Part shown: piece by piece, positions 31,922 to 44,807 of the stretch
Layout: the number at the start of each line of letters is the position of its first letter
How positions within the stretch are numbered: the stretch's first letter is position 1
DNA from: an uncultured Phycisphaeraceae bacterium
GTDB lineage: Bacteria; Planctomycetota; Phycisphaerae; Phycisphaerales; UBA1924
Reading direction: 5' to 3'
DNA: 62,127 nt
NCBI GenBank assembly: GCA_964441555.1
Contig: CAYTYD010000001.1
Span: 1 to 62,127, forward strand
The notes under the pieces: model-generated
The model's input: only the letters and a program-made list of their open reading frames with translations
Databases searched by the model: none
Told to the model about the DNA's origin: nothing
Translations under genes and position numbers: made by a program

Positions 31922-32162
31922 TCCTTCGCAGCGATTGATCCATGGCGTTATTCTCGGACGTTGTTTCGCCGGTTTCCTGCACCTTTTCGCAATCGCCGGG
32001 GCATTCGGACGTTCACACATTCTTAACAATCTTGGCTGATGGCTGTCCCTGGGCGCGCCCCGGGCGACACTGCCAGTGGAGATCGTTTGAAAACGTCGTG
32101 GCGGCGTATCGCTCCGATACACCCTCGTGGAATCGCCCGACCCTGCCGGAGGCCTTGACCGC

Positions 32163-34433
32163 ATGAATCCTCAGATTAGACGCACCTTGCTTTCCCTTGC
32201 TGTTGCGGCGGCGTGCACAAGCACCGCCATGGCACAAGACCTCTACGACACCACGGTGTTGCGCACCATGAATTTCCAGTTTCATGATTCCAACTGGGAG
32301 GCCTTGCTCCGCAGCAACTACGCCGCCCAAACCAACATCCTCGCCGATCTCACCGTCGATGGTGTCACCTATCCCAACGTCGGGGTCCGCATTCGCGGCA
32401 ACACGTCCTACACCGCGCTTCCCTCCGGCTCGCAAAAGTTCTCCCTGAATGTCGAAGTCGACGCCGTCGACCCAGAGCAGGAGTTGATGGGCTATGGCTC
32501 CCTGAATCTCAACAACGGCTTCCACGATCCAACCTTCTGCCGCGAAGTTCTCTACAACAACTACGTCTCACAGTTCGTTCCCAATCCCCGCGCCAATCAC
32601 GTTCTCGTCACGCTGAACGGTCAGAATTGGGGCGTGTACATCAACGTGCAACAGTTCAACAAGACCATGCTTGCACAAGGTTTCTCTGACACCACTGGCC
32701 TGCGCATCAAGTGTGCCAACAACCCCAACGGCCCCGGCCTGCGCTACAACGGCAACACTGCGGCGGGCTACACCGGCTATGAAATCAAAGACGCTGGCGG
32801 CTTTGCTGACCCGTGGGTGCCTCACATCGCCGTGTGCAACGCACTGACCAACGGCGCCACCGCGACGTGGCAAACCAGCATCGATCCGATTTTCGCCGTC
32901 GATCCCTCGATCTGGTCGGTCGTTCTTGAAAACTATCTCACCGACGATGACAGCTACATCAATAAGGGCGCGGATTTCATGACCTACCGCAACCCAACGG
33001 ATGGCCGCACCTTCCTGCTGCAGACCGATGCCAACGAAACCTTTACCCAAACCACCTGGGCCATCAATCGCAACTTCACGCAGACAACCAAGCCGGTGTT
33101 GAACCGCGTGTTGGGCGTCGCCGAACTTCGCCAGCGTTATATGGCTCACTACCGTACGGTCAAAAACGACCTCAACTGGGCCTATTTCGAGCCCCGCGCC
33201 ACCGCGCTGCGCAACCTCATCGACGCTGCCGTGCAGGCCGATCCTAAGAAGCTCTACACCCACACTCTTTTCCAGAACAACTTCACCAGCAGCGTCACTT
33301 TGCCATACTCCGGCCCCGCTGGCGGCACTGTTCCTGGTCTGCAACAGTTCGTCAACGAACGCCTCACCTACCTCAACAGCCAGGCAGAACTCGTTGCCCA
33401 GGGCCCCACGATTTCCAACGTCTCACACTCTCCGACCAATCCCGATCCCACCAACACCGTGACGATCACTGCCGCGGCCGCCGCCAATGGCAGCGCGGTT
33501 TCGCGCGTTGATCTCTACTACCGCCCATCACCCAGCGGCACATACCAGCGCATTCAGATGACGAGCAACGGCAACGGCACCTACTCCGTTGTTCTTCCCG
33601 TCGCTGGCACCGCAGGCAAGCGCGTTCCCTACTACGTCTCGGCAACTTCTTGCAACACCTACTCCTCCCTTTCCTTCTCTCCGGCCCGCACCGAGTGGGC
33701 GCCGCTGCAGGTCAATTACAACTTCGGCGCCACCGGCGGCATGCGCATCACCGAGTGGATGTACTCCGGCACCAGTGGTGAATTCATCGAGTTCACCAAC
33801 GTCTCGACCACTCCCGTCGATATGACTGGCTGGAGCTTTGACGACGACCACGCCACGGCTGGCGCGTTCTCACTCAGTGCCTTCGGAGTGGTTCAGCCCG
33901 GCGAGTCGGTCATCGTGACCGAAGCAACCGAAGCGACCTTCCGCGCCGCGTGGAATCTTGCCCCCACGGTCAAGGTCATCGGTCAGCTCGGCGCTGTCGG
34001 CGTGGGTGGCAACAATCTGGCCCGCAACGACGAAATCAATCTCTACGACAACACCAACACTCTGAAGGATCGTCTCAAGTTCGGCGATCAAACCTTCGCT
34101 GGCACCATCCGCACGCAGAACTTCAGTGGCCAGCCGCCGCGCATAGCCATCGGCCAGGACAGCGTGATTCCCTGGGTCCGCTCGGCCCTGGGCGATGCCT
34201 TCGGTTCCTATGCCGCAACCACCGCCGAACTCGGCACACCCGGCTTCTACAACTGGCGCAATCCCAACTGCCCCGCCGATTTCAACGCCGACGGCACACT
34301 CGACTTCTTTGACTATCTCGATTTCGTCGCCGCGTTCAGTGCCAACGCCGTCACCTCTGACTACAACCTCGATGGTGTCATCGATTTCTTTGATTACCTC
34401 GATTTCGTCGCTGATTTCAGCAACGGCTGCTGA
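32163..34433 (+). CDS. CotH-family protein with lamin-tail-like domain and C-terminal dockerin-like module
   Basis: N-terminal FQFHDSNWEALL...LTVDGVTYPNVGVRIRGNTSY (CotH-like). MRITEWMYSGTSGEFIEFTNVS (LTD-like). The last 54 aa are CPADFNADGTLDFFDYLDFVAAF...DYNLDGVIDFFDYLDFVADFSNGC-stop. Confidence 0.75.
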   Translation: MNPQIRRTLLSLAVAAACTSTAMAQDLYDTTVLRTMNFQFHDSNWEALLRSNYAAQTNILADLTVDGVTYPNVGVRIRGNTSYTALPSGSQKFSLNVEVDAVDPEQELMGYGSLNLNNGFHDPTFCREVLYNNYVSQFVPNPRANHVLVTLNGQNWGVYINVQQFNKTMLAQGFSDTTGLRIKCANNPNGPGLRYNGNTAAGYTGYEIKDAGGFADPWVPHIAVCNALTNGATATWQTSIDPIFAVDPSIWSVVLENYLTDDDSYINKGADFMTYRNPTDGRTFLLQTDANETFTQTTWAINRNFTQTTKPVLNRVLGVAELRQRYMAHYRTVKNDLNWAYFEPRATALRNLIDAAVQADPKKLYTHTLFQNNFTSSVTLPYSGPAGGTVPGLQQFVNERLTYLNSQAELVAQGPTISNVSHSPTNPDPTNTVTITAAAAANGSAVSRVDLYYRPSPSGTYQRIQMTSNGNGTYSVVLPVAGTAGKRVPYYVSATSCNTYSSLSFSPARTEWAPLQVNYNFGATGGMRITEWMYSGTSGEFIEFTNVSTTPVDMTGWSFDDDHATAGAFSLSAFGVVQPGESVIVTEATEATFRAAWNLAPTVKVIGQLGAVGVGGNNLARNDEINLYDNTNTLKDRLKFGDQTFAGTIRTQNFSGQPPRIAIGQDSVIPWVRSALGDAFGSYAATTAELGTPGFYNWRNPNCPADFNADGTLDFFDYLDFVAAFSANAVTSDYNLDGVIDFFDYLDFVADFSNGC

Positions 34434-36431: not shown

Positions 36432-36544
36432 GACCATTCTCCTGGGCACCCATCGCCCGACACGCCGACACGCTCGCGGCACGGGTGCACAGAAACCTAC
36501 TCGCCACCACCCCTCTGGTTGGTCACCTTTCGGTAACAGCGCGC

Positions 36545-37879
36545 TCAGTCATCGATATGTTCTCGAACTCCGGTCTGTTTTTCAGCCTTCTCAAACGCTT
36601 CTTCAATCACTCGCTCGTCATCATCCGACATGGTGAGAGATTGGCGATACTCAAGTGCTTCTGGATCTGCTTTGTAGACAACCTCTCCGTGTTGCTGTTT
36701 CACCAAGTCGACGATCCGATCCAGGTCAACACGGAAATACTCCTTCCGGAGGTTGACGCGATTGACTCGGTGTTTCTGAAGCGCCTTGTGTAACGCGTTC
36801 TCCAGCTTTGGCGCGTCGTCGCACGCAATCATCAGGTGAACATCGAATGGGAACGGCACGGATGCGTCGCCTAATTCCGAAACACGGTCCAGTGGTTCCA
36901 AGCGGCGTGTCATACCAACCTTGTACACGCCTTCGCCCATCGTGCCGATGTTCGAGATGACGTATATGTTGCCTGCTTTGGTGAGTTCTGCCATGGCCTT
37001 GGCCCTGACACCGCGCGCTTCGGCCTCTGCCAGACGCGCCTGAAGCCGCTGAACCTCCTCGTTGTGCTGATTCCCCGCATCGCGCAGCGCTTTGGCGAGC
37101 GCTGCTTGAACTGCCGCACGCTCTCGCTCAAGCTGTTGTAGTTCTTTTTCGATCTCGCGTTCGCGTGCTTGCTGCTCGCGAATCTCGGCCTTGATGCGTG
37201 CCTGCTCCTCTTTTTGCAGCGCGATTCGGACCTCTTCTTCAAAATCCGCTTTGAGCTTTGTCAAAAGTCGGTCTTCTTCCGCCTTCGGAACGTTTGCTCC
37301 AATTTCGCGGCACCATTCGATGACGTCGGTCAATTTCTGCCGACACGACGTGTAGTTGTTTGAAGAGATCGTCTTTGCAAGCCACTTCTCAACGTCGGCA
37401 AGGTATCGCGCGGCCAGTTCATCCGCTCGCTTGCCAAGAATTGTTTGCTGTTGTTTCGTGTCTCGCACATCCTGCGCGAGCTTTCGGTTGTGAATCATCG
37501 ATCGAGAAAGCTCTTGCCTCGCCAACCGGTATGCCTCTATTAACTCCTCTTTGCGTGATTTTTCTGACTCAAAACGGAATCGCTCTGTTTGAAGTTCCGT
37601 TCTGGCGCTCTGTAGAGATGCCTCTTGTTGCGTGGCGGTGACGCGTTTTTGCTCTAGTTCGAAATATGCGTTAGCCAAATCTTCCTTGAAAGACGCTTCT
37701 CTTTTCAAGAAGTCTTTATGCTTGGCCTCTGTGGCAGCCGTCTGCTCGCGCTGCTTGGCAAACAGTTCTTGATTGGATAGCTGTTGCGCTTCGACGGCCT
37801 TCCTTTTCTTGTCGCCGAGAAAATACACACACACTCCACCAAGCACGAAAGCAAACACTGCAAGAATGAGATAGAGCAT
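36545..37879 (-). CDS. TM + coiled-coil DUF4041-like protein with C-terminal T5orf172 (GIY-YIG-like) domain
   Basis: N-terminal TM MLYLILAVFAFVLGGVCVYFLG. About 270 aa of heptad-rich E/R/Q/A coiled coil. C-terminal GNIYVISNIGTMGEGVYKVGMTRRLEPLDRVSELGDASVPFPFDVH...KEYFRV (T5orf172 pattern). Local GC about 48-50%. Confidence 0.8.
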   Translation of the reverse strand: MLYLILAVFAFVLGGVCVYFLGDKKRKAVEAQQLSNQELFAKQREQTAATEAKHKDFLKREASFKEDLANAYFELEQKRVTATQQEASLQSARTELQTERFRFESEKSRKEELIEAYRLARQELSRSMIHNRKLAQDVRDTKQQQTILGKRADELAARYLADVEKWLAKTISSNNYTSCRQKLTDVIEWCREIGANVPKAEEDRLLTKLKADFEEEVRIALQKEEQARIKAEIREQQAREREIEKELQQLERERAAVQAALAKALRDAGNQHNEEVQRLQARLAEAEARGVRAKAMAELTKAGNIYVISNIGTMGEGVYKVGMTRRLEPLDRVSELGDASVPFPFDVHLMIACDDAPKLENALHKALQKHRVNRVNLRKEYFRVDLDRIVDLVKQQHGEVVYKADPEALEYRQSLTMSDDDERVIEEAFEKAEKQTGVREHIDD

Positions 37880-38572
37880 TTAATCTCCCGCCTCGGTGGT
37901 ATTGGTCGAACTCAGCCAAAGGTGTTGGGCTGGCTTCGTGCATGTTGAACATTCATCGATTGTCATCGCCTCGAAAAGGTCGCGTCGAGTCTCGACCCCG
38001 CACGTCAGACATCGCATTTTCGCGACTCTCTTGTTTATGGTTAGCTGGTATGTGGTCTGCTGACGCTCGCCAAACTGCTCAACGACTCCCAATGAAATCA
38101 GGTCGTCGATGAGCCGCTTGGTCCATTCCGTGCTCTTCTGAAGTCTGGTTGATAGTTGTGTGATGTCTTTTGATTCTCCGTCCTCCAGAATCGACCAAAG
38201 GTCCACGACTATCGCAAGTCGAGCGAATGACTCGTTGAGTTCAGCGGCGAGGTCCGCATCAGCAACCTTGTCAATCCGCTTGTTGTCTTTCAGGACGGTG
38301 GAAAGTTCGGCGAGGGCCTCGGATTCGATGAGGGCTGGGGCCCAGCGCAGTGCCCATTGAATCGTTCTTACATGTTTGAAAGTCTTGCCCTCGTAACGCA
38401 CCTCAAATTGCATCATGCCGCTAATGTGCTCCCAACTTTGCCGAGCATGGCTCATGGCTTCTATGAAGTCGCCTCGGTCTGCCGCTTGAAACATGAGAGT
38501 TTCGTACTTTGAGTACTCCTCGCTGTCGCGTTGTAGTTCCGCCTTGGTTGCCACACGCCACCTCCCTTTCAC
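37880..38572 (-). CDS. Hypothetical protein with wHTH-like segment and C-terminal CxxC-x16-CxxC zinc ribbon
   Basis: Its TAA abuts the ATG of the downstream T5orf172 gene (TAAATG). ITQLSTRLQKSTEWTKRLIDDLISLGVVEQ (wHTH-like). MRCLTCGVETRRDLFEAMTIDECSTC. Start is GTG 38572 or ATG 38494. Confidence 0.6.
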   Translation of the reverse strand: MKGRWRVATKAELQRDSEEYSKYETLMFQAADRGDFIEAMSHARQSWEHISGMMQFEVRYEGKTFKHVRTIQWALRWAPALIESEALAELSTVLKDNKRIDKVADADLAAELNESFARLAIVVDLWSILEDGESKDITQLSTRLQKSTEWTKRLIDDLISLGVVEQFGERQQTTYQLTINKRVAKMRCLTCGVETRRDLFEAMTIDECSTCTKPAQHLWLSSTNTTEAGD

Positions 38573-38648
38573 TTTCCAACCCCAGATTACCGCCCCACAA
38601 ACCCGCCGTCGCTTCCCCTTGGCGCTTTATTTGCGTCGCAGGTACTCC

Positions 38649-38672
38649 AACCTGACATACTGCTGTCAGGTT
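38649..38672. promoter_or_regulatory. Perfect 9-bp inverted repeat in the divergent promoter region (operator candidate)
   Basis: AACCTGACA-TACTGC-TGTCAGGTT, 77 nt upstream of the GTG at 38572 and about 50 nt upstream of the MBL-fold gene. Confidence 0.35.
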
Positions 38673-39868: not shown

Positions 39869-40987
39869 TTAATAGGCAAAGTTCGAGAAGTAGTTGGCGG
39901 TAGTGAAGTTGCCGGGCCCGACGATGACGGGAGCCATTTCGTTTCCAGCGGCGATGCCGCCGTAGTTGGAAATGGTGTTGGCGCGAGCCGTGTTGCGGAT
40001 GATAAAGTTATCAGTGCCGTCAACCCACAGGCCCCAGTCATTACCGGTCATGTCGTTGTTCTCAACGCGGTTACCATGCCCCTGGATCCACAGCCCTGCA
40101 GAGTCGCTCGCCGCACCGTTGAGCCGCAACGTGTTGGAAGCGACAGTGCACGTTGAGCCCACGCGAACCCCCTGCCCGGTGTTGCTGAGTGCAAATGAGT
40201 TGGTCAGCGTGGAATGATCGCCGATGTCGAAGCCGCGCCCACTGGAGCGGGCGGTGCAGCGGTCGATGGTGACACCGGAGGTGAACTTGAAGCCGTAATT
40301 TGTGCAGTTGACGGCTGAGCAGTTCTCCAGCCGGACGCCGCTGGCTGTTGTCTCGAATCCAATGTCGCTGCAGTTGGTCGCGGTGCAGTTGGTAAGCACG
40401 CAAGAAACATCAACGTCGAATCCGCTCGTGCAGCCATCGGCAAAGCAATGGTCGAGGATGCACGCTCCGGCGATGCCAAACCCGCTGCCCGACTGGGATG
40501 CCACGCAATTACGAAGCACGAAACCGCCTCCGGTGCCAAAGCCAGAGGCTCCCGCGTTACTGAGTTGAACGCCTTCAATCAAACCCTTCGATGCACTGAA
40601 GAGCCGGATGCCAGTAGAAGACATGTTTTTAACAAAGCCGTTCTTGATGACGATTCCCGAGATCGAGGTCGTCGACTCGATCGCGTGAGTCCCTCCGGAG
40701 ATAGTGAAGCCGTTCAGATCGATGGTGACGTTGCTCGCCGTGATGAGGATGCCAACGGTCGTGTGGGTGATGTTGCCCGTCAGGTAGTACGACCCCGGCT
40801 GCGAGATCACAAACATGGCGCCAGACTGTCCGGGCGTGTTCGTCGCGTTGATCGCCGTCCGCGGCTCAACCTCAGAAAGCGTCTTCATCGTCGCCGTGAT
40901 CGGGCCCGGAGGAGGATTCAATGGCCCCGCCATCGCTGCCGAAGCCGCGGCCACCATCATCACTGTTACAAAGGTCTTACGCATCAT
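39869..40987 (-). CDS. Secreted right-handed parallel beta-helix repeat protein, paralog 1
   Basis: Signal MMRKTFVTVMMVAAASAAMAGP. Shared N-terminal box LNPPPGPITATMKTLSEVEPRTAINATNTPG. Repetitive G/N/S/T-rich beta-helix rungs. Ends NFAY. Confidence 0.75.
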   Translation of the reverse strand: MMRKTFVTVMMVAAASAAMAGPLNPPPGPITATMKTLSEVEPRTAINATNTPGQSGAMFVISQPGSYYLTGNITHTTVGILITASNVTIDLNGFTISGGTHAIESTTSISGIVIKNGFVKNMSSTGIRLFSASKGLIEGVQLSNAGASGFGTGGGFVLRNCVASQSGSGFGIAGACILDHCFADGCTSGFDVDVSCVLTNCTATNCSDIGFETTASGVRLENCSAVNCTNYGFKFTSGVTIDRCTARSSGRGFDIGDHSTLTNSFALSNTGQGVRVGSTCTVASNTLRLNGAASDSAGLWIQGHGNRVENNDMTGNDWGLWVDGTDNFIIRNTARANTISNYGGIAAGNEMAPVIVGPGNFTTANYFSNFAY

Positions 40988-41240
40988 GGGTCGTCTCCTG
41001 TGTGTACTGATTTGTTTGTGAGCCCGGGCCGAATGTGCTCTCTTGCTCATTCGTCACCCAAACTCCCAAGACAGTGCGACGACAACCGACAACAAAGCTA
41101 GAAAATGGGGTTCTTTCTGTATCAATCGCAAGATTGATCATCCCCGCCCACAGAGCATTCGCCAAAAACACACAAGCCCGCAGAGCGAAGTGTGTCGCCA
41201 TGCGGGCCTGGTGGTTTGAGGGGCGTTGTTCAGATTCGCA

Positions 41241-42383
41241 TCAATACAGAATGTTGGCGAAAGGATCAGTCGTGCCCAGCCCGCCGCCACTGTTGCCGTT
41301 GATCGCCGCACTCGATGTGCCAGTGACAATCGTGCCCACGCGGCTTCCTGCCGCAACATACATCGCTGTCGTGCAACCACGCAGGGTGTTTGAAACAATG
41401 TAGTGGCTGGTGGTGACAGATGAGATGCCTGTGGCCATGCGGGTGATCTGGTTGTCCTGCACCTTGGCACCGTTGGTGTCCTGAATCTTGATGCCGATGG
41501 TGTTGGCGACAAATGCCGGATTGGTGATGCTGTTGCCACGAATCAGGCACTCGCCACTGGCGAGAATGCCGATGACGGAACTGTTCGAGCAGACCGAGTC
41601 CAGCACGCTTCCGCTATCGATGACCACGCCAAGGCCGTTGGAGTCAGACGTGAAGTTGCTGACCAACCCGGTTCCAATACTCGCACCAGCACCGGCGTTA
41701 TACGAGGCGGTACAGTTCTTGATCGTCGCGCGGCGGACCGAGAACCCGTCAGCGGTATTGCGAATAGCAACACACCCTTCGATCAGCATGTCGTTGAGGC
41801 CATCAGACCACACGCCGCCACCATTCTGAATGAACTGGCAATTGCGAATCGTGCCGCCCGTGACGAGAGTGCCGTATGAGCTGCATCCCTCCACCACGAC
41901 ATTTTCAATTACAGCGCCCTGATTGCTGCTCGGAGCATGAATCAAAGAAATGCCCGTCGAGTCCGTATTCACGATTCTTCCGTTGCGAATCGTCGGCCGA
42001 TTCACTGTGTACCCGTACACACCGGCTCGCGATCCCGTGAGCCCCTTGATCGTGAATCCGTTCAGATCCACCGTCACGTCGCTCGCCGCGATCTGCACGC
42101 CGTACTTGCTCGCCTCGACCGTCACATCACTGCTCAGGTAATACGAACCTGGCTGCGAAATCACGAACATCGCGCCAGCGTTCCCCGGCGTGTTGGTGGC
42201 ATTGATCGCCATCCGCGGCTCAACCTCAGCCAAGGTCTTCATCGTCGCCGTAATCGGGCCCGGAGGAGGATTCAATGGCCCCGCCATCGCCACAGTCGCG
42301 GCAGATGCCAGCACCATCATCGACAAGCCGAGGTTCCTGATCTTCGTGTGGCGGTTCTTGTTGACATGCAGCTTGAGGTTCAT
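41241..42383 (-). CDS. Secreted right-handed parallel beta-helix repeat protein, paralog 2
   Basis: MNLKLHVNKNRHTKIRNLGLSMMVLASAATVAMAGPLNPPPGPITATMKTLAEVEPRMAINATNTPG. Beta-helix rungs. Ends NILY. Confidence 0.75.
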   Translation of the reverse strand: MNLKLHVNKNRHTKIRNLGLSMMVLASAATVAMAGPLNPPPGPITATMKTLAEVEPRMAINATNTPGNAGAMFVISQPGSYYLSSDVTVEASKYGVQIAASDVTVDLNGFTIKGLTGSRAGVYGYTVNRPTIRNGRIVNTDSTGISLIHAPSSNQGAVIENVVVEGCSSYGTLVTGGTIRNCQFIQNGGGVWSDGLNDMLIEGCVAIRNTADGFSVRRATIKNCTASYNAGAGASIGTGLVSNFTSDSNGLGVVIDSGSVLDSVCSNSSVIGILASGECLIRGNSITNPAFVANTIGIKIQDTNGAKVQDNQITRMATGISSVTTSHYIVSNTLRGCTTAMYVAAGSRVGTIVTGTSSAAINGNSGGGLGTTDPFANILY

Positions 42384-42671
42384 GGGCTTCTCCAGAAAGA
42401 ACTGAGTTGGCCCAAAGCCGAATCCGCTCCCTCGCGAATCCACCACTCCGGCACCGCAACTAATGCGACGCCATCTCCCGTCGTGGCTAAACCCCGCTGC
42501 ACAATCACGCCAAGAACCACTTATCGGGTCCGGCAATCACCAGTCAAGGCCTCTTTTCTGCCCCGTCCTCCCACTCACCTGCCACCTACCAAACTCACCA
42601 AAACCCGCTATCCTGACCCCTTGCCCGCTGGTCAGATCTGGTCGGCGGCAAATGCAGGAGTTCAAAAGCCC

Positions 42672-44807
42672 ATGTCCACCGGACCAGTTACCTCCAGCGG
42701 TGATGCTTCCGCCCCCGTCTATTCACCGCCGCCCTCCGTCAACGCCAAGCAATTGCTTGGCCACCCGATGGGCCTCTTCCTGCTGTTCCTCGTCGAGATG
42801 TGGGAACGCTTCTCCTACTACGGCATGCGCGGCTTGCTCGTCCTTTATCTCATCTGCGTCGCGGGCGTCCATCAGTTGAAGCCGGGAAACTATGTCAACC
42901 AGGTCACCGTCTCTGAGGTCGTTGCCGGTTCTTCCGGATCGTCTGAATCGATAGCTGGCTCGCAAACCTTGAACTACCAAGCAGTCGTTGGTGGTGCGTC
43001 CGCGGCTGATACTGCGCTGGTTCCAGCCAGTGGCAAGCCCACTTTCATCCTGCAGCGCTTGAAGAAGGTGCCTAATAAGGATGACCCGAACGCCTTTGAC
43101 TGGGAACCGGATGCTGCAACATCAGCTACCAGCAACGTGACCATGGTGGTGTCGGGCAACAAAGCGGAGAACGTCACCAACAGCGAAACCGCTTTTCGCA
43201 TCAGCAACCCGACCGACAAACCCATTAACATTCGTGTCGGCGTCAAAGCACCGGAAAAGGATGGCCGCCGCTACCTCGTTCTCAATGGTTCACCCAGCGA
43301 ATTGTCCGTTGAACTCAAGCCAGACGCACAGCTGAAACCCGACGAAAAACCCTTTGAAGTCGTCGTTTCCAGTCCTCATGACAGCGGCCGCGCCTGGACA
43401 AAGAAGGAAGCAAACACGCTGTACGGCTGGTACGTGGGGCTCGCCTACCTCTTCCCCATCTTCGGCGGCATCATCGCCGACAAACTCATCGGTACCCACC
43501 GATCCATGCTCGTCGGCGGCCTCCTCATCTCACTGGGACACATCGTCCTAGGCATCAGTGGCATGGGCGATCTATCGCAGAATGCAAGTGGCCTCGCGAT
43601 CTTCATGGGCGGCCTGGCCCTCATCGTCTGCGGCACTGGCCACTTCAAGCCCACCGTCTCCGTCATGGTCGGCCAGTTGTACGGCACCGGTGACGCTCGC
43701 CGCGACGGTGCCTTCACCATCTTCTATATGGGCATCAACCTGGGTGCCTTCCTCTGCGCATTCGTCTGCGGCACGTTGGGAGAGAAGGTCGGCTGGCACT
43801 GGGGCTTCGGCGCAGCTGCTGTCGGCATGATTCTCGGCCTCGTTCTGTACACCCTCGTGAAGCCAATTCTCCTCAAAGGCATCGGCGAAGCCCCGGCCCA
43901 CGTCAAGAGCCCATTCGGCGCCACAGTCCTTTTCTTCATCGGTTCGATTGTGCTCTCCGCGATTTTCGCACTCGCATATCAGGCGGGCGTGATCACCCAA
44001 ATCGGCGGCTTGATGACGAAGATAGGAGACGATGGCACCCTCCGCATCGCCGTCCCCGCCACGCTCATCGTCGGTATCCTCGCTTGGGTCGGCTGGTTCC
44101 TCGCTCAGAATCGCCCCGAAGATCGCGGTCCCGTTCTCAGCATCTTCATCTTCATGGCATTCAACACCTTCTTCTGGTGCGCCTTTGAACAAGCCGGATC
44201 GTCAATCAACATCTTCACCGATCAAAACACAGATCGTCACATCGCAGGAGCGAATTCCTTTGAAGTGCCCACAACCTGGTTCCAATCCGTCAACGCTGGG
44301 CTGATCTTCATCCTCGCACCCATTTTCGCCATCATCTGGACCAAATTGGGCAAGAAGAACCTCAACCCCAGCCAGCCAGTCAAGATCGCGCTGGGCCTCA
44401 TCTTCCTTGGCCTCGGCTACATCTTCATGGTTATGGCGGGCATGACGGCAAATGGCGGCGCCAAGGCCGGCATGCTCTTGATTTTCCTCACCTACTTCTG
44501 GCACACCGTCGGCGAACTCTGCCTCTCTCCCACCGGACTCTCCTACGTCACCAAGACTGCGCCCATCCGATTCATGTCACTGCTCATGGGCATCTGGTTT
44601 GTCTCGTCCTTCGTCGCCGGTCTGGGTGGCGGCCTCATCGCCGCTCAAGTCGAAGCCATCGAAAAGGGCCAAATCAAACTTCCCTGGAGCTTCGGTGGCC
44701 AGGCCGACTTCTTCTTCCTCTTCGTCGTCACCTCCATCGGCGCCGGAGTGGTAGTGCTGCTTCTCACACCGGTGCTCAAGAAGCTGATGCGCAACCCCAA
44801 CGACTGA
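42672..44807 (+). CDS. Proton-dependent oligopeptide transporter (POT/PTR2, DtpT-like) with a large TM1-TM2 insertion
   Basis: PTR2 signature FLVEMWERFSYYGMRGLLVLYL and FGGIIADKLIGTHR, 14-TM-like body. ATG 42672 is in frame with ORF 41937..44807, whose N-terminal 245 aa overlap the beta-helix gene and were discounted. Confidence 0.85.
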   Translation: MSTGPVTSSGDASAPVYSPPPSVNAKQLLGHPMGLFLLFLVEMWERFSYYGMRGLLVLYLICVAGVHQLKPGNYVNQVTVSEVVAGSSGSSESIAGSQTLNYQAVVGGASAADTALVPASGKPTFILQRLKKVPNKDDPNAFDWEPDAATSATSNVTMVVSGNKAENVTNSETAFRISNPTDKPINIRVGVKAPEKDGRRYLVLNGSPSELSVELKPDAQLKPDEKPFEVVVSSPHDSGRAWTKKEANTLYGWYVGLAYLFPIFGGIIADKLIGTHRSMLVGGLLISLGHIVLGISGMGDLSQNASGLAIFMGGLALIVCGTGHFKPTVSVMVGQLYGTGDARRDGAFTIFYMGINLGAFLCAFVCGTLGEKVGWHWGFGAAAVGMILGLVLYTLVKPILLKGIGEAPAHVKSPFGATVLFFIGSIVLSAIFALAYQAGVITQIGGLMTKIGDDGTLRIAVPATLIVGILAWVGWFLAQNRPEDRGPVLSIFIFMAFNTFFWCAFEQAGSSINIFTDQNTDRHIAGANSFEVPTTWFQSVNAGLIFILAPIFAIIWTKLGKKNLNPSQPVKIALGLIFLGLGYIFMVMAGMTANGGAKAGMLLIFLTYFWHTVGELCLSPTGLSYVTKTAPIRFMSLLMGIWFVSSFVAGLGGGLIAAQVEAIEKGQIKLPWSFGGQADFFFLFVVTSIGAGVVVLLLTPVLKKLMRNPND

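What the first reader, a model, noticed from the sequence alone, without database searches (positions are those of the whole stretch)
36545..38672. Low-GC two-gene island: wHTH/zinc-ribbon protein plus membrane-anchored coiled-coil T5orf172 (GIY-YIG-like) protein, a candidate defence module
GC falls to about 48-50% in spot counts (for example 37501-37560 = 29/60), against about 60-65% in the flanks. The two genes are translationally abutted (TAAATG at 37877-37882) and are inserted between unrelated housekeeping-type genes on opposite strands. The downstream protein has one N-terminal TM helix, about 270 aa of coiled coil (DUF4041-like), and a C-terminal T5orf172 domain, which belongs to the GIY-YIG nuclease superfamily. 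The upstream 230-aa protein has a wHTH-like segment and a CxxC-x16-CxxC ribbon, and no family I recognise. Small operons combining a nuclease-like effector with a sensor or regulator on compositionally foreign DNA are typical of anti-phage systems. I cannot assign this pair to a named system.
Basis: partly seen in the sequence, partly recalled or inferred. Interest (0 to 1): 0.7.

Follow-up and report, generated by a model that had tools for sequence, protein, structure and literature searches.

The report
Two-gene SNIPE-type anti-phage nuclease cassette
The low-GC island holds a homologue of SNIPE/PD-λ-1, a membrane-anchored nuclease shown in E. coli to cut phage DNA as it is injected, and here it is always paired with a previously undescribed zinc-ribbon partner protein that the published one-gene system lacks.

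Summary
Two abutting minus-strand genes (TAAATG junction) form the lowest-GC 2 kb of the window: 52.8% against 60.0±1.8%, with GC3 57-61% against 76-79% in the flanks.

The 444-aa protein can be assigned to a named system. It matches PADLOC's PD-Lambda-1 models (E 3e-77, near full length). It has the SNIPE layout: an N-terminal TM anchor, a coiled coil, a diverged DUF4041 and a GIY-YIG/T5orf172 nuclease. SNIPE is published as a one-gene system (Saxton et al., Nature 2026).

The upstream 224-aa protein is the new part.
- It founds an unannotated family of 267 clusters with four invariant Cys and no consistent Pfam or PADLOC hit.
- AlphaFold (pLDDT 92) gives a helical domain, a winged helix and a zinc ribbon, with no full-length structural relative.
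- In about 80 of 80 loci with a full-length copy and room downstream, a SNIPE-like gene follows directly (junctions measured in 27 pairs: -7 to +24 nt in 26).
- Among 80 SNIPE-like genes from reference genomes, only one Planctomycetota clade (20 loci) has the partner.
- Nested sister nucleases carry a homologous ribbon fused to their own N-terminus (hhalign 97.5%).

I read the partner as a dedicated subunit or regulator of the nuclease, not a classical repressor. This is a new two-gene variant of a known system. No experiment tests it.

The parts
36545..37879 (-). Gene B: 444-aa SNIPE/PD-Lambda-1-type membrane-anchored nuclease (stop codon included).
   Evidence: ORF. PADLOC PD-Lambda-1 PDLC03976 at E 3e-77, aa 32-428 against profile 75-483/491. 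phrog_1847 at E 5e-84. More than 6900 homologues.
37808..37876 (-). Gene B aa 2-24: single N-terminal transmembrane anchor, followed by the basic patch KKRK.
   Evidence: Kyte-Doolittle 19-residue maximum of 2.55 at aa 2-4, with no other hydrophobic segment. A hydrophobic N-terminal helix is present at the start of the nuclease in all 27 junction-mapped pairs and is followed by basic residues in nearly all.
37241..37426 (-). Gene B aa ~152-213: diverged DUF4041-like central domain (RYLxDxxKW...NNYxxC...).
   Evidence: Aligns colinearly with the Pfam DUF4041 segment (aa 270-326, E 8.5e-13) of the enterobacterial homologue L061. Conserved block in alignment A3. Gives no Pfam PF13250 hit on its own even at E<=10.
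36695..36970 (-). Gene B aa 304-395: T5orf172/MUG113 (GIY-YIG-type) nuclease domain.
   Evidence: Pfam MUG113 E 1e-18 and T5orf172 E 5e-15. Y306, R325, R326, H348, E360, N373 and E380 are invariant in 25 homologues. Mapping E360/N373 to the GIY-YIG catalytic Glu/Asn is my inference from the LExxL...RxN motif.
37880..38554 (-). Gene A: 224-aa partner protein (start GTG 38554; the longest ORF would start at GTG 38572).
   Evidence: ORF. Gene calls of 224 aa in other datasets. Family of 267 representative clusters. AlphaFold2 with the family alignment gives pLDDT 92 and pTM 0.77.
38180..38554 (-). Gene A aa 1-125: N-terminal all-helical domain with the family's most conserved motifs (GMMQ[FY]ER, AP.L, RRIDK..S.DLA).
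   Evidence: Alignment A1 and column conservation. Helices 4-26, 30-55, 63-74, 78-90, 92-97 and 102-123 in the model.
38039..38179 (-). Gene A aa 126-172: winged-helix unit.
   Evidence: Secondary structure in the model. Foldseek partial matches to ArsR/SmtB, Fur/PerR and MarR winged helices. Sporadic Pfam MarR_2/FeoC/HTH_24 hits in family members. No conserved basic columns.
37901..38038 (-). Gene A aa 173-218: zinc ribbon, CxxC-x16-CxxC (C182, C185, C202, C205 in 224-aa numbering).
   Evidence: All four Cys invariant in 56 sequences. Homologous to N-terminal ribbons fused to sister SNIPE-like nucleases: hhalign probability 97.5%, E 6e-12. Specificity control.
37877..37882 (-). TAAATG junction: gene A stop abuts gene B start.
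   Evidence: Of the 27 pairs measured, 26 have a gap of -7 to +24 nt and one has 60 nt.
38561..38566 (-). GGGAGG Shine-Dalgarno-like motif 6 nt upstream of GTG 38554.
   Evidence: Read directly from the sequence.
38649..38672 (-). Perfect inverted repeat AACCTGACA-gcagta-TGTCAGGTT in the divergent intergenic region, 94 nt upstream of gene A. It is a candidate operator and is unproven.
   Evidence: 9-bp arms, matched by about 1.5% of shuffles. Comparable repeats occur in only 5 other independent loci; 17 have none.

Best explanation
The island is a horizontally acquired two-gene anti-phage cassette of the SNIPE (PD-λ-1) kind.

**Gene B.** Gene B encodes a nuclease tethered to the cytoplasmic membrane by one N-terminal helix. 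Its coiled coil, diverged DUF4041 domain and GIY-YIG/T5orf172 nuclease domain lie in the cytoplasm. By homology with E. coli SNIPE it would stay auto-inhibited at the membrane and cut phage DNA as it enters the cell. This step is inferred from homology and is not shown here.

**Gene A.** Gene A is translated just ahead of B from the same transcript. It encodes a soluble, acidic protein with a helical domain, a winged helix and a zinc ribbon. It is a dedicated partner of this nuclease clade. I infer that it binds the membrane-proximal N-terminal part of the nuclease through its zinc ribbon. It would then supply in trans the adapter or licensing function that other SNIPE homologues build into their variable N-terminal region. 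That could mean holding the nuclease off, or directing it to the entry site.

**Possible extra role.** A secondary role in repressing its own operon through the upstream palindrome is possible but weakly supported.

**Sub-confidences.**
- B is a SNIPE-family membrane nuclease: about 0.9.
- The cassette is a defence system: about 0.75.
- A is an obligate functional partner: about 0.85.
- A acts by protein-protein association rather than as a classical repressor: about 0.45.
For: **B belongs to the SNIPE family.**
- PADLOC PD-Lambda-1 models match at E 3e-77 and 4e-75 over almost the full length.
- The TM anchor is present.
- The central block aligns with a Pfam-positive DUF4041 segment.
- The nuclease domain has an invariant core.
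- The mechanism and the TM/DUF4041/GIY-YIG architecture of SNIPE come from PMC13190303.

**A is a real, dedicated partner.**
- Its family has 267 representative clusters, about 220 aa each, with four invariant Cys.
- All 7 distinct family members looked up or found first, counting the window's own gene, are followed by a T5orf172 gene.
- All 20 genome loci that carry gene A have it directly upstream on the same strand.
- All 53 metagenome loci with a full-length A and room downstream carry the pair.
- Of the 27 junctions measured, 26 have a gap of -7 to +24 nt.
- Flanking contexts differ completely between loci.
- The cassette is GC-poorer than its flanks in 16 of 16 other hosts.

**The ribbon links A to the nuclease.**
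- Sister nucleases L027, L028, L029 and L033 carry a homologous ribbon at their own N-terminus, ahead of a longer hydrophobic stretch that I read as two TM segments (not formally predicted).
- These loci have no separate gene A.
- hhalign gives probability 97.5% and E 6e-12.
- A ribbon-only HMM scores these N-termini at 28-34 bits, against 14.5 bits or less for about 75 other CxxC..CxxC ORFs.
- L027-L029 nest inside the A-associated clade in a rough NJ tree.

**Evidence against a plain repressor.**
- The winged helix has mean net charge about 0 and no conserved basic column.
- Conservation sits in the N-terminal domain and the Cys ligands.
Against: - No experiment exists for this clade, and defence is inferred from about 39% identity to enterobacterial homologues over the C-terminal 300 aa.
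- Pfam's DUF4041 model does not detect gene B.
- The winged-helix fold, the upstream position and a significant palindrome in the window and five other loci also fit a transcription factor.
- The tight upstream-small-gene, downstream-nuclease layout also fits a toxin-antitoxin pair.
- The window shows no defence island around the cassette.
- The NJ tree is crude.
Confidence: 0.55

Rival explanations
1. Gene A is simply the operon's transcription factor. It would be a winged-helix repressor or activator, dimerised or stabilised by the zinc ribbon. It would bind the upstream palindrome and set SNIPE expression, with no physical role in nuclease action.
For: - The winged-helix fold is predicted with high confidence, with Foldseek partial matches to ArsR/SmtB, MarR and Fur/PerR. 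The Fur/PerR proteins also carry CxxC..CxxC structural zinc sites.
- Family members give sporadic MarR_2, FeoC and HTH_24 hits.
- JGI names one homologue 'predicted transcriptional regulator'.
- The window has a perfect inverted repeat with 9-bp arms at 38649-38672 in a divergent promoter region where no terminator is expected. Five other independent loci have repeats with p<=0.035, against about 0.8 expected among 23.
Against: - No inverted repeat above chance was found in 17 of 23 loci.
- The winged helix has no conserved basic residues and near-zero net charge across the family, and the window protein has net charge -9.
- The family is found only with one nuclease clade, unlike promiscuous defence regulators.
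- Its ribbon is fused to the membrane nuclease itself in sister lineages, which is hard to explain for a free repressor's domain.
Confidence: 0.25
2. The pair is a toxin-antitoxin-like module. B would be a nuclease toxin and A its co-translated neutraliser, which is lost or displaced on infection so that the cell's or the phage's DNA is degraded (abortive infection).
For: - The layout is a small upstream gene abutting a downstream nuclease, with translational coupling.
- SNIPE without its TM anchor is highly toxic in E. coli through its nuclease (PMC13190303), so this nuclease family needs restraint.
- A is acidic, as many nuclease inhibitors are. That comparison rests on my own knowledge.
Against: - E. 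coli SNIPE acts by direct defence without cell death and needs no antitoxin (and for the microscopy passage).
- The permanent in-cis fusion of the ribbon in sister nucleases does not fit a labile antitoxin.
- A family members give no consistent antitoxin-family hit in Pfam or PADLOC.
Confidence: 0.15
3. The cassette is not a defence system. It would be a selfish T5orf172 homing-endonuclease-type element, or a housekeeping membrane-associated DNA-processing pair.
For: - T5orf172 domains are common in phage homing endonucleases (titles and abstracts listed).
- The window shows no neighbouring defence genes.
Against: - B has a TM anchor and a full-length match to PD-Lambda-1 models rather than a stand-alone nuclease.
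- No gene-A relative was found in 2.9 million viral contigs.
- The cassette has patchy distribution, foreign composition in 16 of 16 other hosts (17 of 17 counting the window), and variable insertion sites. That is the signature of accessory rather than housekeeping genes.
Confidence: 0.05

Closest known systems
SNIPE (= PD-λ-1) of E. coli (Vassallo et al. 2022, PMC9519451; Saxton et al. 2026, PMC13190303)
   Same: - Gene B has the same order of parts: N-terminal TM anchor, long helical region, DUF4041-type domain, helical linker and C-terminal GIY-YIG/T5orf172 nuclease.
- It matches both PADLOC PD-Lambda-1 HMMs nearly end to end.
- It aligns at 39% identity (E 1e-60) with an enterobacterial DUF4041 protein.
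   Different: - The published system is one gene, and the E. coli homologue inspected (L093) stands alone in a P2-like prophage hotspot.
- Here an upstream partner gene always accompanies the nuclease.
- Pfam's DUF4041 model does not detect gene B.
- The host is a planctomycete-type genome rather than an enterobacterium.
- Interaction with ManYZ or with tape measure proteins is untested.
Zinc-ribbon-fused SNIPE-like nucleases of Planctomycetota (L027, L028, L029 from Planctomycetaceae bacterium SH248, L032, L033, L059), seen here and not named in the literature I could search
   Same: - L027, L028, L029 and L032 nest inside the gene-A-associated nuclease clade, L033 sits just outside it, and L059 falls elsewhere in the tree.
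- Their N-terminal CxxC-x16-CxxC ribbon is homologous to gene A's C-terminal ribbon.
   Different: - The ribbon is in cis, followed by a longer hydrophobic stretch that I read as two TM segments instead of one (not formally predicted).
- The helical and winged-helix parts of gene A are absent, and no remnant lies upstream.
Membrane-associated multi-protein DNA-targeting defences (Zorya, Kiwa) as reviewed in PMC12904381
   Same: The concept is the same: a membrane-localised component working with a DNA-binding or DNA-cutting component at the site of phage genome entry.
   Different: The proteins are unrelated. Nothing here resembles ZorAB motor or KwaA/KwaB components (no such PADLOC hits).
Fur/PerR and ArsR/SmtB winged-helix metalloregulators
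   Same: The Foldseek match covers the winged helix only. Fur/PerR also combine a winged helix with a CxxC..CxxC structural zinc site.
   Different: - There is no full-length match (TM-score to query <=0.32, E >=0.01).
- The domain order and the N-terminal helical domain differ.
- There is no conserved basic DNA-binding face.
- No sequence-level relation was detected.

Membership tests
SNIPE / PD-Lambda-1 (protein family) | Significant, near full-length match to the PD-Lambda-1 profile HMMs used by PADLOC | tested here: met
   PDLC03976 at E 3e-77, 258 bits, aa 32-428 against profile 75-483/491. PDLC03977 at E 4e-75.
SNIPE / PD-Lambda-1 (protein family) | N-terminal transmembrane anchor with the bulk of the protein cytoplasmic | tested here: met
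   There is one hydrophobic segment at aa 2-24 (KD 2.55) followed by KKRK. A hydrophobic N-terminal helix is present in all 27 junction-mapped partner nucleases and is followed by basic residues in nearly all. Topology is predicted by the positive-inside rule only.
SNIPE / PD-Lambda-1 (protein family) | Central DUF4041 domain (Pfam PF13250) | tested here: inconclusive
   Gene B and its clade give no PF13250 hit even at E<=10, whereas the enterobacterial L061 hits at 8.5e-13. However, gene B aa ~152-213 aligns colinearly with that DUF4041 segment within an E 1e-60 alignment.
SNIPE / PD-Lambda-1 (protein family) | C-terminal GIY-YIG-type nuclease domain with catalytic residues intact | tested here: met
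   MUG113 at 1e-18 and T5orf172 at 5e-15. Y306, R325/R326, E360, N373 and E380 are invariant in 25 homologues. Which Glu equals E. coli E414 is inferred and not shown. No solved structure was detectable by sequence.
SNIPE / PD-Lambda-1 (system as published) | Single-gene system, sufficient on its own | tested here: not met
   Gene B always has the gene-A partner directly upstream in its clade. Sufficiency of B alone is not testable here.
SNIPE / PD-Lambda-1 (system as published) | Protects against phage by cleaving DNA during injection; associates with injection machinery | not testable with these tools
   This needs plaque assays, labelled-DNA injection assays and proximity labelling as in PMC13190303.
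Winged-helix transcription regulator (MarR/ArsR-like), for gene A | Winged-helix fold | tested here: met
   AlphaFold2 model at pLDDT 92. Foldseek partial matches to ArsR/SmtB/MarR/Fur with probability about 1.0 and target TM 0.4-0.56.
Winged-helix transcription regulator (MarR/ArsR-like), for gene A | Conserved basic DNA-contact surface in the recognition helix or wing | tested here: not met
   Mean net charge of the winged helix is -0.2 and of the recognition helix -0.3. No column exceeds 57% K/R.
Winged-helix transcription regulator (MarR/ArsR-like), for gene A | Palindromic operator upstream of its own operon | tested here: inconclusive
   A significant inverted repeat occurs in the window and 5 other independent loci, and none in 17.
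Phage homing endonuclease of the T5orf172 type | Free-standing soluble nuclease gene inside a phage genome or between phage genes | tested here: not met
   B is a TM-anchored 444-aa protein. The window's flanks have native composition and no phage domains. No gene-A relative occurs in viral contigs.
Type II toxin-antitoxin module | Upstream protein neutralises the downstream toxin and is selectively degraded | not testable with these tools
   Only the gene order and the coupling are compatible. There is no consistent antitoxin-family hit.

The most novel reading that the evidence does not exclude
Gene A defines an undescribed obligate second subunit that turns SNIPE into a two-component system in Planctomycetota. 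In this reading the protein docks by its zinc ribbon at the membrane-proximal end of the nuclease. It then acts as the sensor or licensing factor that decides when the tethered nuclease may cut, for example by recognising incoming DNA or a phage entry protein. The ribbon-fused nucleases would be the single-chain version of the same device.
Probability: 0.35. Interest if true: 0.65.

Novelty: new variant of a known kind. Interest (0 to 1): 0.5.

Why it matters
SNIPE is a recently described way of telling self from non-self by location: it cuts DNA only where phages inject it. How the tethered nuclease is kept off host DNA and switched on at the right moment is still unclear. The published work points to the variable N-terminal region as an adapter.

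This cassette adds three things.
- A whole clade has moved part of that function into a separate, strictly co-inherited protein.
- Sister lineages fuse that protein's zinc ribbon back onto the nuclease.
- Together these give a natural split and fused pair of designs for dissecting regulation.

It also adds an unannotated protein family (267 clusters) to the defence catalogue. Current PD-Lambda-1 detection rules would report only half of the system. A cultured carrier, Limnoglobus roseus PX52 (locus L031), offers a place to test it, and it would extend known defence biology into Planctomycetota.

Tried and rejected
- **Gene A looked like an orphan.** The word-indexed homologue search found only two near-identical proteins. 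The exhaustive HMMER search overturned this with 267 clusters.
- **First locus scan failed.** The search for related loci with the 56-sequence alignment failed because the family is too diverse. An 8-sequence subset worked.
- **Single-sequence AlphaFold2 was useless.** It gave pLDDT 47. The alignment-based run gave 92.
- **No full-length structural relative of gene A.** Foldseek against PDB and BFVD found none. Profile searches of PDB sequences found nothing for A or B.
- **DUF7295 lead rejected.** Only 2 of 56 family members hit it, and both were below threshold.
- **No mobility signature.** I looked for flanking direct repeats, tRNA genes and terminators and found nothing meaningful. No sigma-70-like promoter was found, which is uninformative for this phylum.
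- **Source organism and an island-free strain.** An exact-protein look-up of the neighbouring MBL-fold gene found nothing on record. The window's genome is also not among the species representatives; the best nuclease match was 51%.
- **Ribbon-less remnant of gene A.** I searched upstream of the ribbon-fused nucleases and found none.
- **DUF4428 link.** The SNIPE paper reports this N-terminal domain, but Pfam gave no hit to the ribbons.
- **Catalytic residues.** Anchoring them on a solved GIY-YIG structure by sequence failed.
Full report

Yes. Two ORFs lie head to tail on the minus strand.
- Gene B is 36545-37879 (444 aa).
- Gene A is 37880-38572 as the longest ORF (230 aa).

Gene A's working start is most likely the GTG at 38554, for three reasons.
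- It lies 6 nt downstream of a GGGAGG.
- It gives the 224-aa product that gene callers report for the two closest homologues.
- It matches the N-termini of the whole family.

The stop of A and the start of B read TAAATG at 37882->37877.

- The two genes are 52.8% GC.
- The flanking genes are 61.6% and 61.3% GC.
- The window mean for 2028-bp windows is 60.0±1.8%.
- The island is the lowest such window in the 62 kb.

Part of a GC dip could come from the Lys/Glu/Gln-rich coiled coil. However, GC3 is also low, at 57% and 61% against 76-79% in the neighbours. The DNA is therefore compositionally foreign.

No tRNA lies in the window, and no flanking repeat lies at the island borders. The six neighbouring ORFs annotated include no integrase. 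They encode:
- a DUF4139/DUF4140 protein on the minus strand;
- an MBL-fold protein on the plus strand;
- a CotH/LTD protein;
- one protein with a NosD-type beta-helix match, next to a paralogue-like ORF that gave no Pfam match;
- a POT transporter.

This is not a defence island.

**2. What is gene B?**

Pfam finds only the C-terminal T5orf172/MUG113 domain. PADLOC's two PD-Lambda-1 models match almost the whole protein:
- E 3e-77, aa 32-428 against profile positions 75-483 of 491;
- E 4e-75 for the second model.

PD-λ-1 was found in an E. coli functional selection. [quoted passage not shown]

PD-λ-1 has since been characterised as SNIPE (PMC13190303).
- It is a single protein with an N-terminal TM helix, a DNA-binding DUF4041 and a GIY-YIG nuclease.
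- It sits auto-inhibited in the inner membrane.
- It cleaves phage DNA during injection.
- It associates with ManYZ and with tape measure proteins.

Gene B has each of these parts.
- One hydrophobic segment at aa 2-24 is followed by KKRK.
- A low-complexity helical region follows.
- A conserved central block lies at aa ~152-213.
- A second helical stretch follows.
- The nuclease domain has Y306, R325/R326, H348, E360, N373 and E380 invariant in 25 homologues.

Pfam's short DUF4041 model does not detect gene B even at E<=10. It does detect an enterobacterial homologue (L061, E 8.5e-13). A pairwise alignment (E 1e-60, 39% identity over aa 123-420) places gene B's central block exactly on that DUF4041 segment. 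I therefore treat it as a diverged DUF4041.

Assigning E360/N373 as the catalytic Glu/Asn rests on the GIY-YIG 'LExxL...RxN' motif, which I recall from memory. No solved structure was detectable by sequence to confirm it.

The family is very large. More than 6900 hits passed E<=1e-10 among the 8000 candidates scored. The nearest non-self relative is 57% identical, and named relatives are Phycisphaerae, Pirellulales and other Planctomycetota.

**3. What is gene A?**

Nothing in Pfam, NCBIfam, PHROGs or PADLOC matches gene A at family level.

The word-indexed search made it look like an orphan. An exhaustive HMMER search then found 267 representative clusters, 129 of them at E<=1e-10. Nearly all are about 220 aa and align end to end at 22-34% identity.

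The alignment shows:
- four invariant cysteines (CxxC-x16-CxxC);
- a strongly conserved N-terminal half, with the motifs GMMQ[FY]ER, AP.L and RRIDK..S.DLA.

With this alignment AlphaFold2 gives a confident model, at pLDDT 92 and pTM 0.77. It has a six-helix N-terminal domain, a winged helix at aa ~126-172, and a C-terminal beta-ribbon that carries the Cys pairs.

Foldseek finds no full-length relative in PDB or BFVD. The best E-value is 0.01 and the TM-score to the query is 0.32 or less. The partial matches are:
- winged-helix regulators (ArsR/SmtB, MarR, Fur/PerR);
- helical-repeat plus winged-helix (PCI) architectures;
- a TPR plus rubredoxin architecture (LapB).

Across 56 members there is no consistent Pfam or PADLOC hit. 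The DUF7295 lead appears in only 2 of 56.

**4. Is the pair conserved? From gene A to gene B.**

- The 79%-identical homologue is followed, with the same TAAATG junction, by a gene 68% identical to gene B's N-terminus.
- Five further family members, at 22-33% identity to gene A, were looked up on long contigs. All are followed within 0-18 nt by a T5orf172/MUG113 gene of 389-494 aa. One of those genes is split in two.
- A metagenome scan added 64 loci. All 53 with a full-length gene A and at least 200 nt of room downstream carry a SNIPE-like ORF directly after it.
- The only exceptions are one doubly degraded locus and two short A-like fragments. Six loci that my first adjacency filter mis-scored have been re-read and counted as pairs.

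**5. Is the pair conserved? From gene B to gene A.**

The test set was the 80 best SNIPE-like loci from species-representative genomes, out of 588 or more relatives.
- 20 loci have a gene-A homologue immediately upstream on the same strand, at E 1e-95 to 5e-31.
- All 20 are Planctomycetota, including the cultured Limnoglobus roseus PX52.
- None of the loci from Enterobacterales, Bacteroidota, Myxococcota, Cyanobacteria or other non-planctomycete lineages has one.
- An E. coli homologue is annotated as a lone 'DUF4041 domain-containing protein' between a phage CI repressor and an integrase.

Further properties of the pairs:
- Of the 27 junctions measured, 26 have an A-B gap of -7 to +24 nt and one has 60 nt.
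- Every partner nuclease begins directly with a hydrophobic N-terminal helix, followed by basic residues in nearly all.
- Flanking genes differ completely between loci. Examples are DnaE/DnaG, glycine-cleavage genes and methyltransferases.
- The cassette is GC-poorer than its flanks in 16 of 16 other hosts, by 7.9 points on average.
- No gene-A relative was found in the viral contig collection.

The cassette therefore moves as a two-gene unit.

**6. The zinc-ribbon link.**

In L027, L028, L029 and L033 there is no gene A. Instead the SNIPE-like protein itself starts with a CxxC-x16-CxxC ribbon, followed by a longer hydrophobic stretch that I read as two TM segments from the sequence, without a formal prediction. 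L032 and L059 also lack gene A, but there the ribbon is less secure. In L032 the CxxC..CxxC ribbon lies on a separate upstream ORF, which I read as a split gene. The ribbon-only HMM scores the L032 and L059 ribbons at only 14.2 and 7.5 bits, within the background range.

The evidence that these ribbons are homologous to gene A's ribbon is:
- A ribbon-only HMM built from gene A's family scores these N-termini at 34, 32, 28 and 17 bits. About 75 other CxxC..CxxC-bearing ORFs, among 6904 in the same loci, score 14.5 bits or less.
- A profile-profile comparison gives probability 97.5% and E 6e-12 over 44 columns.

In a rough neighbour-joining tree of the nuclease C-terminal 300 aa:
- all gene-A-associated nucleases form one clade;
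- L027, L028, L029 and L032 nest inside that clade;
- L033 lies just outside it.

No ribbon-less remnant of gene A lies upstream of the fused forms.

This split-versus-fused pattern is the strongest available hint that the ribbon works physically with the membrane-proximal N-terminus of the nuclease.

**7. How does it most likely work?**

Shown here:
- B's homology and architecture;
- strict co-occurrence and tight coupling of A and B;
- homology of the ribbons;
- foreign composition of the cassette.

Inferred:
- B acts like E. coli SNIPE, as a membrane-tethered nuclease that cuts entering phage DNA.
- A is a cytoplasmic subunit that binds B through its ribbon. It would provide the adapter or licensing role that the SNIPE authors ascribe to the variable N-terminal region.

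I favour a protein-partner role over a plain repressor for these reasons.
- The winged helix has no conserved basic face. Its family mean net charge is about 0, and the window protein as a whole has net charge -9.
- Conservation sits in the helical domain and the Cys ligands.
- The family appears exclusive to one nuclease clade.

A repressor role is not excluded.
- The window has a perfect inverted repeat with 9-bp arms (38649-38672) in the divergent promoter region, with p of about 0.015.
- Five other independent loci have comparable repeats, which is more than chance predicts.
- Seventeen loci have none.

A toxin-antitoxin reading fits the gene order. It fits poorly with the stable in-cis ribbon fusions and with SNIPE's non-abortive mode of action.

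**8. Comparison with what is known, and novelty.**

Gene B is a member of the SNIPE/PD-Lambda-1 protein family. The one caveat is that Pfam's DUF4041 model misses it.

The system differs from the published one in one defining respect: it is not a single gene. The SNIPE paper does not use the words 'zinc' or 'accessory', and its uses of 'operon' and 'neighbouring' do not concern SNIPE's gene neighbours. It notes only PH or DUF4428 N-terminal domains in TM-less homologues. Two reviews describe SNIPE as a single membrane-bound nuclease.

Within the literature and libraries I could search, the gene-A family and the two-gene architecture are undescribed. I rate this a new variant of a known kind.

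**9. Verdict.**

The interest is moderate.
- The effector is already explained by a 2026 paper.
- The obligate partner family, its restriction to Planctomycetota and the split/fused ribbon pattern are new and testable.
- They bear on the open question of how SNIPE is restrained and targeted.

All functional statements remain inferences until tested.

Noticed in passing
window 39869-41050 (-) and 41241-42536 (-): Two adjacent minus-strand ORFs (393 and 431 aa) share a near-identical N-terminal stretch (MAGPLNPPPGPITATMKTL.EVEPR.AINATNTPG..GAMFVISQPGSYYL). They look like tandem paralogues of a secreted beta-helix protein. Only the second reaches a Pfam NosD match.
   Followed up: no
window 32127-34433 (+): A 768-aa protein has CotH kinase and Lamin-tail domains. 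Its C-terminal tail has repeated 'DFFDYLDFV' motifs that look dockerin-like.
   Followed up: no
window 41937-44807 (+): The POT/MFS transporter match covers only aa ~487-910 of a 956-aa ORF. The ORF's first ~200 codons run antisense through the neighbouring gene at 41241-42536. The true start is probably much further downstream.
   Followed up: no
window 36545-36670 (-), gene B aa ~402-444: Beyond the Pfam nuclease domain, gene B and its relatives keep a highly conserved acidic C-terminal tail (A404, E407-L409, Y411-S414, D421, I425, E426 are invariant or nearly so). Its function is unknown. It gave a weak, non-significant resemblance to the C-terminus of antitoxin RelB (E 0.13).
   Followed up: partly
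L005 6682-8201 and L006 (same coordinates): The SNIPE-like gene is split into 309-aa and 172-aa ORFs while the upstream gene-A homologue is intact. This may be a frameshift, a pseudogene or an assembly error.
   Followed up: no
L093 (E. coli NZ_CP135595.1, 2995071-3002530): The E. coli DUF4041/SNIPE homologue sits between a phage CI repressor and an integrase. It lies next to an AAA ATPase plus DUF4435 pair, which I recall as the PARIS defence system. That makes this a prophage defence hotspot, and 379 of 5426 complete E. coli genomes carry a homologue.
   Followed up: partly
L003/L004 1-2418 and L005/L006 155-2035: Some gene A-gene B cassettes lie near DNA methyltransferases (an 838-aa N6_N4_Mtase; MethyltransfD12 with a PDDEXK_11 nuclease). 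This suggests a defence-island context in those hosts, unlike the window.
   Followed up: no
L155 2-142 and L157 296-547: Two metagenome contigs hold only a short match to the N-terminal ~50 residues of the gene-A family, with no SNIPE-like gene downstream. They may be decayed remnants, or the N-terminal motif may occur in another protein.
   Followed up: no
window 36483-36544: Only 62 nt separate gene B's stop from the longest-ORF start of the next minus-strand gene (DUF4139/DUF4140), and no terminator-like hairpin lies on that strand. Read-through transcription into the native gene is possible, or that gene may start further downstream.
   Followed up: no
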